Program-made: the position numbers
Shown: piece after piece, positions 28,931-31,900 of the stretch
Position numbering within the stretch: the first letter of the stretch is position 1
Layout: every line of letters starts with the position of its first letter
NCBI RefSeq assembly: GCF_041248615.1
Contig: NZ_CP158426.1
Direction: 5' to 3' (one strand)
DNA from: Escherichia coli
GTDB taxonomy: Bacteria > Pseudomonadota > Gammaproteobacteria > Enterobacterales > Enterobacteriaceae
DNA length: 64,000 bases

Positions 28931-31900
28931 TGATAATCCTCCCGCCAGAAGAATAAAACATAGCCCGGTATACAAGTGTATACCGGGCTTTTTTGATCAA
29001 AATTCCATTTTCACCGTGAATTGCACTTCACGCGGATCGCCAATCTGATTCCCCAGATTATTTGTGGCGATGGAAGAGGTGTAATACGTTTTATCAAACA
29101 GGTTTTTGACGTTTAATTGCAGTGTGACCGGATACTGCAATTTCATTTTGTATGCGGCGAAGGCATCGGCAACGAAATAGCCTGGCAGATAATAGTCAGC
29201 CCCATTGGTTGCCGAACGACGGCTTACGCCATGTCCACCACCGCCAAACGTCAGTGTGTTATTGCCTGGCATGTTATGAATGTCATAGGTCAGGAATAGC
29301 GAACCGGTATGACGAGGAACATTCGGCAATGGTTTCCCTGCATAATCAGGATCCTCCAGAACCTTAGCATCGGTATAGCCGTAGCTGGCAATGATATTAA
29401 TGTTTTCAGTTAATGCTCCCGCAAGGTCGACTTCTACCCCTCTTGAACGAACGCGGCCTGCCGTTTTGGCGATGGTTTCATCACCAATACTTTCGGTATA
29501 CAACACGTTACGTTTATGGATATCAAACAGCGCAATATCTGCGGTTATACCATCGAACAGCTCGAATTTTGCCCCGACTTCGTAAGCATTAGATGATTCC
29601 GGTGGAAGATCTCCGATGTAGCTGGCAATTGACGATTGCGGCATAAATGTTTGCGAATAATTAGCAAATAAGGATACCGATGGCGTCAGTTTGTAGACTA
29701 ACCCCAGTTTGGGCGTCCATTGTTCATCGCGGCTGTCAGTATTGACATTAAAAGGACGGCCTTTACCCGCATACTGCGTGTAATACTGATAGCGGATCCC
29801 GGCGACGGCAATCCAGTTATCGGTCAGATAGAGCGCGTCCTGTGCATAAGCTGAGTAGCTCTCCTGTTTGATCGTCTGATCGCTGTCCGACGCCGAGACA
29901 GTTGTGCATTTGCTGGTATTGCCGTAAACAGGGTTGTAGATATTGAAATCTTTAGCGTTTTTACAGCGAATCATATCTGTGCGCAGAAGATCATAATATT
30001 CATATGACACCCCACCCAGAATCTCATTATAGAACCCAGCAATATCAACATTCCCTTGCAGATCCGCACGAGTAGAATGCATACGCTGGGTAGATCCCTG
30101 AGTTGCATCAACACGCCGTGTCAGCGTTCCTGTCGTTGCATCATACGCGGTAACACGAGCCTGATTGTCGCTGTATTTATCCTGGCTGTAGCTGTAATCA
30201 AAGCGCGCTGTCCACTGGCTATTGAGATGATATTCTGCGTTGAGTTGCGCCAGATCGGACTGACCATTTGTAATATTAAACGGTTCGTCAAAACGTATTT
30301 TTCGATCAACGTTTACGGGCTGTTTCGTCGTAAGGTCGAAAATCGTTCCACGATCGAACGGAGTTTTATAGTCCCGATGGGAATAGAGCATGGTTACTGT
30401 TGCATTATCACCAAACCAGGTGAGTGACGGGGCAATAAATGTACTGCGCTCTTTACCGAAGTTTCGCCAGTAATCTTCATCCTGCACTTCCCCCGTCAGG
30501 CGGTATGCCAGCTGAGTGCCTTCAATGGGACCTGTGATATCAAGTTGCCCAGTGCCTCCGCCAAAACTGGAGGACGTGGCTGAGACAGAACCATGGAATG
30601 TTTTTTCCGGGCGCTTGGTCACGACGTTAATCAATCCACCAGGATCGAGAATGCCATACAGCGTGGAGGCCGGACCTTTTAGCACTTCCACACGTTCTGT
30701 GGCGGCGTTGAAACTGCGAGGAAGTACAGTTCGCAGGCCGTTGGTCATGATGGAGCCATCCCGGTTAGCACCAAACCCACGACGTACAAAGGCGTCCTGA
30801 GTTCCGCCTAATGTATTGGTCTGTACCACGTTACTGACGTTATAAAGCGCTTCATCCAGCGTCGTCGCATTCTGATTTTCCAGAACCTGATCGCTAACCG
30901 TATTGACCACCTGCGGGATATCCAGCATCGGCATATCGGTTAATGTCGCCGTGGAAGTGCTCAGAGGTTGATAACCATCGGTCGCCTCAGTTGCGGTATT
31001 TGCATCCGCTGTAACAGTGATTGTTTCGCCATCTTTGGTCGTTACAGAGTCTGTTGCATAAATCATCGGTGCCGCAAAAAGCAGTGAAAAGAGCGCCCGA
31101 CCTTTGAGTCCTGAGAATGAAGGTGTGAACATAGCCATTTAGTCTGTTATCCCAAAAACTCGCGGATTGTCGCGAGTGAAAATTGTTTCTTATTGCTCAC
31201 TAAGCACTATCCGTTTGTTATTTCGCCATCGGATATGTAATTGAGAATCATTCAATCATGCGGTAATGTAGTAGTAAATGAGAAATAACAAAAAATTGCT
31301 ACATGTGTTTTTATGAGAGGTTAATGCAATTCAATTGATGATAATTTATTAATATTTAATGGTTTTATTTTTATCTTTAAAAATATTTCACCTGTTATTT
31401 ACCTTGTTTTTGTATGGCTTTTAACTTCTTGACTACTACATTTTGTGGCGTCAAACTCTCAAAAGAGAATGAGTTTTATTTTTGTTTGTCTTTGATTAAG
31501 TTGGCGTACACGTGGCACATAACGCAAAAGGGCAGGGGCTGATCCTCGACAATGTTTCTGCCGGGTATCACACGAAAATCATTGTTGATGGCGTTTCTTT
31601 CTCCGTTCCCACAGAAAAAATGACCGTTCTGGTTGGGGCAAACGGCTGTGGAAAGTCGACGTTGCTCAGCACCATTGCACGTATCTTGCAACCTATGGGC
31701 GGCTCGATATTGCTGGATGGTAAAGCGATTCACGAGCAACCAACGAAAGCGTTATCCCGTAGACTTGGGATCTTGCCGCAGTCGCCATTATTGCCGGAGG
31801 GCTTAACCGTTTATGAACTGGTGTCGCGTGGGCGTTTTCCCTGGCAAAATTTCATACGTCAATGGAGCGACGCCGACGAGCAGGCGGTAGAAGAGGCCCT

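What the first reader, a model, noticed from the sequence alone, without database searches (positions are those of the whole stretch)
31139..31511. Divergent AT-rich promoter region of the island with Fur-box-like motifs
The 373-bp spacer between the receptor gene and the ABC operon is AT-rich and contains TGAGAATCATTCAATC (31242-31257) and GATGATAATTTATTAAT (31337-31353), both resembling the GATAAT hexamer arrays of Fur boxes. Iron-responsive control of both divergent transcripts is therefore plausible, but these are eyeball matches, not scored hits.
Basis: partly seen in the sequence, partly recalled or inferred. Interest (0 to 1): 0.3.

Follow-up and report, generated by a model that had tools for sequence, protein, structure and literature searches.

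The report
Fur-controlled divergent fit promoter region

Summary
The window is E. coli chromosome. Bases 31139-31511 are the fitA/fitBCDER intergenic region of the accessory "fit" island, inserted between parE and ygiN.

Published work (PMC2593036) reports that Fur-Fe and FitR repress both promoters. The binding sites were not mapped.

I rebuilt a 19-bp Fur matrix from 20 experimentally supported K-12 sites.
31462-31480 scores 14.4 bits and 31468-31486 scores 11.7 bits, six bases apart. This is the third-best hit in 64 kb, after the known exbB box. It lies just after the predicted fitB -10 and is conserved in 39 orthologous loci from about ten genera.
it scores only 7.9/3.4 bits, which is not significant by sequence alone. 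It sits in a 26-bp block that is almost invariant across genera and overlaps the predicted fitA extended -10 and start site. It is probably a weak Fur operator.
noise, at 2.8 bits, unconserved and altered even within E. coli.

Verdict: interpretation correct and already known; site assignment half wrong.

Extras:
- a fitA 5' leader with two covarying helices
- mirrored 12-mers at both -35 regions with a length-locked spacer

The parts
31139..31511 (.). fitA-fitB intergenic region (373 bp, 69.7% AT) carrying both promoters of the fit island
   Evidence: ORFs and RefSeq annotation; composition; the literature uses a 347-bp fragment of it as a bidirectional promoter
31462..31486 (.). fitB-proximal Fur operator: two overlapping 19-mers six bases apart, AAAGAGAATGAGTTTTATT (14.4 bits) and AATGAGTTTTATTTTTGTT (11.7 bits), covering about +1 to +23 of the predicted fitB transcript
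   Evidence: Matrix scan; shuffles; present in all 40 orthologous regions with best score 9.4 to 21.4 bits, median 14.8; invariant in E. coli apart from one score-neutral A/G
   Evidence: weak by score; block 31236-31261 almost invariant across genera; orthologue scores 3.4 to 12.5 bits, median 7.9
31429..31457 (+). Predicted PfitB: -35 TTGACT (31429-31434), 17-bp spacer, -10 CAAACT (31452-31457); start site inferred near 31464
   Evidence: At a fixed 17-bp spacing the hexamer is always CAnnnT in 40 of 40 regions (CAAACT, CATGAT, CAAAAT and others), while the spacer varies. Not called by the consensus scan. The start site is inferred.
31250..31278 (-). Predicted PfitA: -35 TTTACT (31278-31273), 17-bp spacer whose last three bases are the extended -10 TGn (31258-31256), -10 hexamer TTGAAT (31255-31250); start site inferred near 31243
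   Evidence: TGn plus TTGAAT in 40 of 40 regions, with n free (A, T, G or C); alignment. The start site is inferred.
31267..31278 (-). Left copy of the mirrored 12-mer (minus strand TTTACTACTACA), containing the fitA -35
   Evidence: Inverted repeat I2; invariant in every one of the 40 aligned regions (window plus 39 loci)
31429..31440 (+). Right copy of the mirrored 12-mer (TTGACTACTACA), containing the fitB -35
31279..31428 (.). Central AT-rich spacer. Its sequence is not conserved but its length is locked (149-151 or 171-173 nt).
31139..31243 (-). Predicted fitA 5' leader (about 105 nt): helix P1 (31234-31209), conserved block (31200-31190; GUGAGCAAU in this window, GGGCAAUGA in most other genera), hairpin P2 (31177-31158) followed by a U run and GGGA before the AUG
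   Evidence: Folding z-scores; RNAalifold; covariance model and pair counts; no Rfam family; compensatory pair within E. coli
28997..31138 (-). fitA, TonB-dependent siderophore receptor
   Evidence: NCBIfam TIGR01783 at 372.8 bits; Pfam Plug and beta-barrel domains; RefSeq annotation
31512..36189 (+). fitBCDE ABC importer genes and fitR (35302-36189), an RpiR/MurR-family repressor
   Evidence: literature

Best explanation
The region holds two back-to-back sigma-70 promoters of the fit iron-uptake island, each with its own Fur operator laid over its -10 and start region.

- **PfitB:** -35 TTGACT (31429-31434), 17-bp spacer, -10 CAAACT (31452-31457). It reads rightwards into fitBCDER.
- **PfitA:** -35 TTTACT (31278-31273) with an extended -10, TGn plus TTGAAT (31258-31250). 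It reads leftwards into fitA.
- **With iron:** Fur-Fe2+ dimers occupy 31462-31486, two overlapping sites six bases apart. These lie directly after the fitB -10. Fur also occupies the weaker 31234-31258, across the fitA -10 and start site. This blocks RNA polymerase at both promoters.
- **Without iron:** Fur leaves and both transcripts rise.
- **FitR:** this RpiR-family repressor is encoded at the end of the fitB operon. It adds a smaller, iron-independent repression somewhere in the same fragment.

Basis of each step:
- Shown by others: iron and Fur dependence in both directions, and FitR binding to the fragment.
- Shown here: matrix scores, six-base phasing, conservation across genera, and the promoter hexamer pattern.
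- Inferred: the exact start sites, Fur occupancy of the weak fitA site, and the FitR site.
For: **Identity of the locus**
- The DNA is 100% identical to E. coli chromosomes. The region is present in 1870 of 5426 complete genomes.
- Gene content matches the published fit system: fitA, fitBCDE and an RpiR-type fitR, next to parE. K-12 has parE directly beside ygiN.

**Published experiments (PMC2593036)**
- Reporters in both directions respond to iron.
- fitA rises 23-fold in a fur mutant and 52-fold in a fur fitR double mutant.
- FitR shifts the 347-bp fragment.

**Fur matrix**
- It was built from 20 sites whose coordinates come from Chen et al. 2007 and whose DNA comes from NC_000913.3.
- It recovers the exbB box in this window as the top hit, at 20.9 bits. 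It places 31462 (14.4 bits) third of about 64,000 positions.
- Shuffle probabilities are 0.024 for a maximum that high and 0.0009 for the phased pair.

**Conservation**
- All 39 orthologous loci keep the fitB box, with a median score of 14.8 bits.
- They also keep the fitA block, with a median of 7.9 bits and up to 12.5 bits.
- Footprinted K-12 sites such as fur and tonB score only 6.1 and 7.1 bits when left out of the matrix. So 7.9 bits is within the range of real weak sites.

**Promoters**
- The fitB hexamer is CAnnnT at a fixed 17-bp spacing in 40 of 40 regions.
- The fitA element is TGn plus TTGAAT in 40 of 40, with n variable.
- Within-E. coli polymorphism falls mainly in the centre and spares all four blocks apart from one score-neutral A/G at 31464.
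Against: - No start site, footprint or ChIP data are available to me. The 2006 paper describing the locus is not held.
- The consensus promoter scan called nothing in the region. TTGAAT lacks the usual A at the second position of a -10.
- The fitA-side site is not significant by score (P = 0.29).
- Its full conservation could instead come from the promoter itself or from FitR.
- The matrix scores fall by about 4 to 8 bits if the local AT-rich composition is used as background: 10.2, 4.1, 3.4 and 1.3 bits.
Confidence: 0.75

Rival explanations
1. There is only one true Fur operator, the fitB-proximal one. The conserved block at 31236-31261 is kept because it is the fitA core promoter (extended -10 and start site) and/or the FitR operator. 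On this reading, iron control of fitA comes from Fur spreading or looping from the fitB site, or from an indirect route.
For: - The fitA-side score is weak: 7.9 and 3.4 bits, P = 0.29.
- The block is invariant even at positions that depart from the Fur consensus, which suggests another constraint.
- It coincides with TGnTTGAAT.
- FitR binds somewhere in this fragment and represses both directions.
Against: - fitA is derepressed 23-fold in a fur mutant, and the fitA-direction reporter responds to iron.
- The fitB site is about 220 bp away from the fitA promoter.
- The fitA block contains a perfect Fur half-site (ATTGAGAAT). In some genera it reaches 10.0 to 12.5 bits, the range of footprinted weak sites.
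Confidence: 0.2
2. One reading: the functional Fur boxes are 31242-31257 and 31337-31353, the latter a central site serving both promoters.
For: - Both strings exist in the sequence.
- Several other species do carry a strong Fur-like 19-mer somewhere in the central spacer, for example 17.7 bits in Enterobacter chuandaensis and 16.4 bits in Citrobacter.
Against: - In this window the central motif scores 2.8 bits, and about 1.9 such positions are expected by chance.
- The position is not conserved.
- GATGATAAT reads GCTTTTAAT in ST131 and other E. coli.
- This version omits the best-scoring, fully conserved site at 31462-31486.
Confidence: 0.05
3. Fur does not bind here at all. The Fur-like strings are by-products of AT-rich promoter DNA, and iron control is indirect, for example through another Fur-dependent regulator or a small RNA.
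For: - Consensus-type matches are common in shuffled AT-rich sequence.
- No binding data for Fur on this DNA are available to me; the paper cites them as unpublished.
Against: - The phased pair at 31462-31486 has P = 0.0009 in shuffles.
- It is kept in every one of the 40 aligned regions (window plus 39 loci).
- It is the third-best hit in 64 kb, next to a proven site.
- The cloned fragment alone confers iron control.
Confidence: 0.04

Closest known systems
fit iron transport system of E. coli (Ouyang and Isaacson 2006, 2008; PMC2593036)
   Same: It is this very locus. It has fitA opposite fitBCDE-fitR and a bidirectional intergenic promoter repressed by Fur-Fe and by FitR.
   Different: The papers available to me left the Fur and FitR sites unmapped. 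The positions given here are predictions.
fepB / entCEBA divergent promoters of E. coli K-12
   Same: Two divergent iron-uptake transcripts, each with its own Fur footprint over its own promoter. The footprints are listed at 623939-623969 and 624054-624102 in Chen et al. Table 3. Both sites were used in my matrix.
   Different: - The fit operators are further apart, about 228 bp centre to centre.
- One of them is much weaker.
- A second, dedicated repressor (FitR) acts on the same region.
fepA-fes and fepDGC-entS bidirectional Fur-controlled regions
   Same: Divergent siderophore receptor or transport promoters with clusters of overlapping Fur sites spaced by six bases.
   Different: In those regions a compact central cluster serves both directions. 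In fit the centre is unconserved and the sites lie at the two ends.
fhuACDB and fecABCDE uptake systems
   Same: FitA, FitB, FitC and FitD are most similar to FhuA, FecE, FecC, FecD and FhuB-type proteins. All fall below the equivalog cut-offs. All are Fur-repressed TonB-dependent importers.
   Different: fec uses the FecI/FecR sigma system for substrate control. fit instead carries an RpiR/SIS-type repressor. The fit substrate is not established in anything I could read.
RyhB-responsive 5' leaders (cirA, shiA); recalled from my own knowledge, not tested here
   Same: The fitA leader has a conserved unpaired block complementary to the RyhB core, over 8-9 bp.
   Different: The duplex energy is no better than for shuffled leaders (p 0.05 to 0.9 across leaders). 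No experimental link is known.

Membership tests
Fur operator of the E. coli Fur regulon | Scores above background with a matrix built from proven Fur sites | tested here: met
   31462-31480 scores 14.4 bits and ranks third in 64 kb; P(max) = 0.024 in shuffles. For the fitA-side site (7.9 bits, P = 0.29) the same test is inconclusive. For 31337-31353 (2.8 bits) it is not met.
Fur operator of the E. coli Fur regulon | Overlapping sites spaced by 6 (or 3) bases, as in footprinted clusters (Chen et al. 2007) | tested here: met
   31462 with 31468, and 31234 with 31240, are each six bases apart. The phased strong pair has P = 0.0009.
Fur operator of the E. coli Fur regulon | Overlaps the -35, -10 or start region of the regulated promoter | tested here: met
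   Both clusters abut or overlap the conserved -10 elements. The promoters are predicted, not mapped.
Fur operator of the E. coli Fur regulon | Conserved in orthologous promoters | tested here: met
   Found in all 40 aligned regions, the window plus 39 orthologous loci from Escherichia to Erwinia and Pantoea.
Fur operator of the E. coli Fur regulon | Fur protein binds the DNA (footprint, EMSA or titration assay) | not testable with these tools
   PMC2593036 cites Fur-Fe repression as unpublished data and says the exact site is unknown.
Fur operator of the E. coli Fur regulon | Expression depends on iron and on fur | not testable with these tools
   Reported in the literature: about threefold induction on iron deprivation in both directions, and 23-fold for fitA in a fur mutant.
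fit island (fitA / fitBCDER) | Gene set and order: TonB-dependent receptor opposite an ATPase, two permeases, a binding protein and an HTH_6 + SIS regulator; accessory locus in E. coli | tested here: met
   Present in 34% of complete E. coli genomes. Absent from K-12, where parE abuts ygiN.
RpiR/MurR-family operator (FitR site) | A defined repeat bound by the regulator, present where the regulator is present | tested here: inconclusive
   The only other element shared by both promoters is the mirrored 12-mer. It is unchanged in four loci that lack an adjacent fitR, so the assignment is not supported.
Known cis-regulatory RNA families (Rfam 15) | Match to a curated covariance model at or near the gathering score | tested here: not met
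   The best matches are unrelated families far below threshold: MIR827 at 25.6 against 65 bits, and Leu_leader at 16.2 against 50 bits.
Intrinsic terminator / attenuator (hairpin P2) | GC-rich stem directly followed by a U run, conserved among orthologues | tested here: inconclusive
   The stem is conserved with covariation. The U run is present in Escherichia and Kluyvera, weak in Enterobacter and absent in Erwinia and Pantoea. The terminator scan did not call it.
RyhB target | Seed complementarity better than chance, with experimental dependence on RyhB | tested here: inconclusive
   8-9 bp to the RyhB core at the conserved block in most leaders, but energies do not beat shuffles. Dependence cannot be tested here.

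The most novel reading that the evidence does not exclude
Beyond ordinary Fur repression, the region may carry two undescribed control layers.

1. **The fitA leader.** The roughly 105-nt leader may be a new conserved structured RNA. It has two covarying helices, an almost invariant unpaired GGGCAAUGA block and a hairpin next to the ribosome-binding site. It could set receptor synthesis after transcription, for example by pairing with RyhB or by premature termination.
2. **The mirrored 12-mers.** These elements at the two -35 regions are held 150 or 172 nt apart, a difference of two helical turns, across an otherwise unconserved spacer. They may be the anchor points of a protein bridge or DNA loop that couples the two promoters.
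Probability: 0.25. Interest if true: 0.5.

Novelty: already known. Interest (0 to 1): 0.2.

Why it matters
fitA is an accessory receptor enriched in B2 and adherent-invasive E. coli and has been proposed as a strain marker (PMC9409007). Knowing where Fur acts gives precise targets for reporter and mutational work on when this receptor is made in the host.

In itself the result is a routine confirmation: a siderophore-uptake island is Fur-repressed, as already published.

The modest added value:
- base-level operator and promoter predictions, which the 2008 paper named as open
- a warning that eyeballed GATAAT matches in AT-rich DNA are unreliable
- two conserved features worth a bench test: the structured fitA leader and the phase-locked mirrored 12-mers

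Tried and rejected
- **Classical consensus counting.** Counting matches to GATAATGATAATCATTATC gave 13/19 at best. That count is reached in 26% of shuffles, so the method does not discriminate here.
- **Promoter and terminator scan.** The built-in scan found nothing in the region. I inferred the promoters from cross-genus hexamer patterns instead.
- **Papers not held.** The 2006 paper on fit and the supplement of Chen et al. are not held. I rebuilt the Fur site set from Table 3 and Table 4 coordinates, after working out the offsets between genome versions.
- **First attempt at the leader structure.** MAFFT plus RNAalifold on the last 55 nt of the leader gave no structure because the stems were misaligned. 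Full-length leaders of the closer genera worked.
- **RyhB pairing.** Unrestricted duplex folding gave meaningless long duplexes. The restricted version showed consistent pairing at the conserved block, but the energies were not better than for shuffles. I demoted this to a lead.
- **Mirrored 12-mer as the FitR operator.** It is unchanged in four loci where a PepSY-type membrane protein gene replaces fitR.
- **A small upstream ORF from the AUG in GGGCAAUGA.** Rejected, because E. coli and some Kosakonia have AUA there.
- **Further literature.** Searches found no later mapping of the fit operators.
- **The leader model elsewhere.** It finds no similar leader at K-12 fhuA, fepA, cirA, fecA and other loci.
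Full report
**What the region is**

The window is E. coli chromosome. An 1101-bp query spanning the finding is 100% identical to several complete genomes and is present in 1870 of 5426.

The gene order around it is tolC, nudF, yqiB, cpdA, yqiA, parE. Next come a TonB-dependent receptor gene on the minus strand (28997-31138) and, on the plus strand, five genes: an ABC ATPase (31512-32321), two FecCD-type permeases, a periplasmic binding protein and an HTH_6 + SIS regulator (35302-36189). The order then continues with ygiN, mdaB and qseCB.

In K-12, parE lies directly next to ygiN, so these six genes are an accessory insertion. This is the "fit" system of Ouyang and Isaacson: fitA opposite fitBCDE-fitR. 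The finding's coordinates, 31139-31511, are exactly the fitA-fitB intergenic spacer.

**What was already known**

PMC2593036 cloned the intergenic fragment in both orientations in front of lacZ.
- Both directions are induced about threefold by iron deprivation.
- Purified FitR shifts the 347-bp fragment.
- The authors state that fit is repressed by Fur-Fe2+ (their unpublished data) and that the exact binding sites of Fur and FitR remain to be identified.

I found no later paper that maps them. The 2006 paper is not in the library.

**Checking the observation**

The spacer is 373 bp and 69.7% AT, against 49.2% for the window. That is the 99.3rd percentile of all 373-bp windows. Both quoted strings are present.

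To score them I rebuilt a single-dimer Fur matrix (19 bp, 9-1-9).
- Chen et al. 2007 (PMC2189734) give genome coordinates of footprinted or gel-shifted K-12 sites in their Tables 3 and 4.
- I fetched those places from NC_000913.3 and corrected for the offsets between genome versions. This recovered 17 centred sites that align as AATGATAATnATTATCATT.
- I added the best 19-mer of the fepB, fur and tonB footprints, giving 20 sites.
- Leave-one-out scores of these sites have a median of 20.6 bits. The weak but footprinted fur and tonB sites score only 6.1 and 7.1 bits.

Scanning the whole window gave:
- The best hit is the known exbB box at 57127 (20.9 bits), a built-in positive control.
- Second is a palindrome over the yqhH start codon at 50546 (14.9 bits).
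- Third is 31462-31480, AAAGAGAATGAGTTTTATT (14.4 bits). Its partner six bases on is 31468-31486 (11.7 bits).

In 20,000 dinucleotide-preserving shuffles of the region:
- a maximum of 14.4 or more occurs in 2.4%
- a six-base-phased pair of that strength occurs in 0.09%
- a maximum of 7.9 or more occurs in 29%
- about 1.9 positions per shuffle reach 2.8 bits

With the local AT-rich composition as background, the four sites still rank first (10.2, 4.1, 3.4 and 1.3 bits).

Counting matches to the classical consensus does not separate signal from noise here.

**Evidence from related sequences**

A scan of one genome per species with FitA found 39 loci. They come from Escherichia, Enterobacter, Lelliottia, Silvania, Huaxiibacter, Citrobacter, Kosakonia, Kluyvera, Yokenella, Erwinia, Pantoea and Affinibrenneria. 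FitA identity ranges from 71% to 99%. All have fitB opposite fitA, and 35 have fitR.

Aligning the intergenic regions shows four blocks that are essentially invariant in an otherwise unalignable spacer:
- 31236-31261
- 31267-31280
- 31428-31441
- 31462-31486

What each block carries:
- **The last block is the strong Fur cluster.** Its best score across the 40 regions is 9.4 to 21.4 bits, median 14.8.
- **The first block contains motif 1.** Its best score is 3.4 to 12.5 bits, median 7.9.
- **Motif 2 lies in the unconserved centre.** Among five E. coli strains the substitutions cluster in that centre. GATGATAAT reads GCTTTTAAT in ST131 and others, while the four blocks are unchanged apart from one score-neutral A/G.

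**Promoters (inferred)**

The two middle blocks are an inverted repeat, TGTAGTAGTAAA and TTGACTACTACA. Each contains a -35-like hexamer facing its gene.

- **fitB promoter.** Exactly 17 bp after TTGACT, the hexamer is CAAACT, CATGAT, CAAAAT, CAAGAT, CAGAAT, CAATAT or CATTAT. It is always CAnnnT, meaning the two key -10 positions are fixed while the rest drift.
- **fitA promoter.** Seventeen bp after TTTACT on the other strand lies TTGAAT, preceded by TGn in 40 of 40 regions. The n takes all four bases, which is the signature of an extended -10.
- **Predicted start sites.** These elements put the start sites near 31464 and 31243. The strong Fur cluster would then cover about +1 to +23 of fitB, and the weak one would cover the fitA -10 through about +10. 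Both are standard positions for a repressor.

The consensus scan did not call either promoter, and TTGAAT lacks the usual A at its second position. These assignments therefore need start-site mapping.

**Most likely mechanism**

There are two separate Fur operators, one per promoter. The fitB operator is strong and the fitA operator is weak, and FitR adds an independent repression. I put about 0.85 on the fitB operator, about 0.6 on the fitA operator being a true Fur site, and 0.75 on the overall picture.

The main rival is that the fitA block is conserved as promoter and/or FitR site, with Fur acting only from the fitB side.

**Where FitR binds is unresolved**

The mirrored 12-mer is the only other element shared by both promoters, and it overlaps both -35 hexamers. 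However, it is unchanged in four Erwinia, Pantoea and Affinibrenneria loci where a PepSY-type membrane protein gene follows fitE in place of fitR. I therefore do not assign it to FitR.

One odd fact about the 12-mers stands out.
- The DNA between them is 149-151 nt in 21 regions and 171-173 nt in 19 regions. The two length classes differ by two helical turns.
- Its sequence is only 60-66% identical within a class, against 55% for shuffled pairs.
- By comparison, the fitA leader length ranges from 102 to 133 nt, and reaches 254 nt in one species.

Something constrains the spacing or phase of the two promoters.

**The fitA leader**

From the predicted start to the AUG (31243 down to 31139) the RNA has four parts:
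- an outer helix P1 (31234-31209)
- an unpaired block that is GGGCAAUGA in most genera and GUGAGCAAU in this window (31200-31190)
- a hairpin P2 (31177-31158)
- then U-rich sequence and GGGA before the AUG

Evidence for the structure:
- P2 exists in all 36 distinct leaders with many different stem sequences. The mean folding z-score is -2.5, and 78% of leaders have p of 0.05 or less.
- RNAalifold on 20 leaders predicts both helices, with compensatory changes in 7 of 11 pairs.
- In an alignment of 31 leaders made with a covariance model, 95.1% of cells pair, against 81.5% after shuffling (0 of 500 shuffles reach the observed value). With partners slid by 1-3 columns, 25-49% of cells pair. Nine of 11 pairs change on both sides. 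That alignment is fitted to the structure, so these figures lean in its favour.
- One compensatory pair is polymorphic within E. coli.

No Rfam family matches. The model finds nothing similar at K-12 Fur-regulated loci.

The unpaired block is complementary to the RyhB core over 8-9 bp, but the duplex energies do not beat shuffles. This is only a lead.

**Verdict**

Of its two motifs, one is a plausible weak operator and one is noise, and the strongest operator was missed. The finding itself is ordinary. The leader structure and the phase-locked 12-mers are the only parts that go beyond what is known.

Noticed in passing
window 31139-31243, minus strand: The predicted fitA 5' leader is structured. 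Helix P1 (31234-31209) and hairpin P2 (31177-31158) covary across genera and even within E. coli. An almost invariant unpaired block (31200-31190) is complementary to the RyhB core. No Rfam family matches.
   Followed up: partly
window 31267-31278 and 31429-31440: Mirrored 12-mers (TGTAGTAGTAAA and TTGACTACTACA) are invariant in all 40 aligned regions (window plus 39 loci). The unconserved DNA between them is length-locked at 149-151 or 171-173 nt. They are retained in loci without fitR.
   Followed up: partly
window 50546-50564: A Fur-like palindrome, GGTGAAAATCGTTTTCATA, scores 14.9 bits, the second-best hit in the window. It overlaps the start codon of the yqhH ORF (50306-50563, minus strand). 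It may be a coincidence of coding sequence.
   Followed up: no
window 57127-57145: The known exbB Fur box (AATGAGAACGACTATCAAT, 20.9 bits) lies in the window and served as an internal positive control.
   Followed up: yes
L044, L045, L046 and L054, about 350-1700 in each locus: In four Erwinia, Pantoea and Affinibrenneria loci, fitR is missing. A gene for a PepSY-type membrane protein of about 380 aa follows fitE instead.
   Followed up: partly
window about 40900-48000: The window is about 1010 bp longer than strain CFSAN061770 somewhere in this stretch. The ygiQ, yqhH and exbB coordinates are all shifted by +1010 relative to that record, although the fit region is 100% identical.
   Followed up: no
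window 18069-19127 and about 10014-10446: These are the two other most AT-rich stretches of the window. The first covers the accessory assT-dsbL-dsbI genes and the second the Ibs type I toxin genes. Several weak Fur-matrix hits there (up to 10.4 bits) look like composition effects.
   Followed up: no
L019, L025, L030-L032 and L054, central spacer: Several other species carry a strong Fur-like 19-mer (13.8 to 17.7 bits) at non-homologous positions in the central spacer. A third Fur site may come and go in evolution. This window has none.
   Followed up: partly
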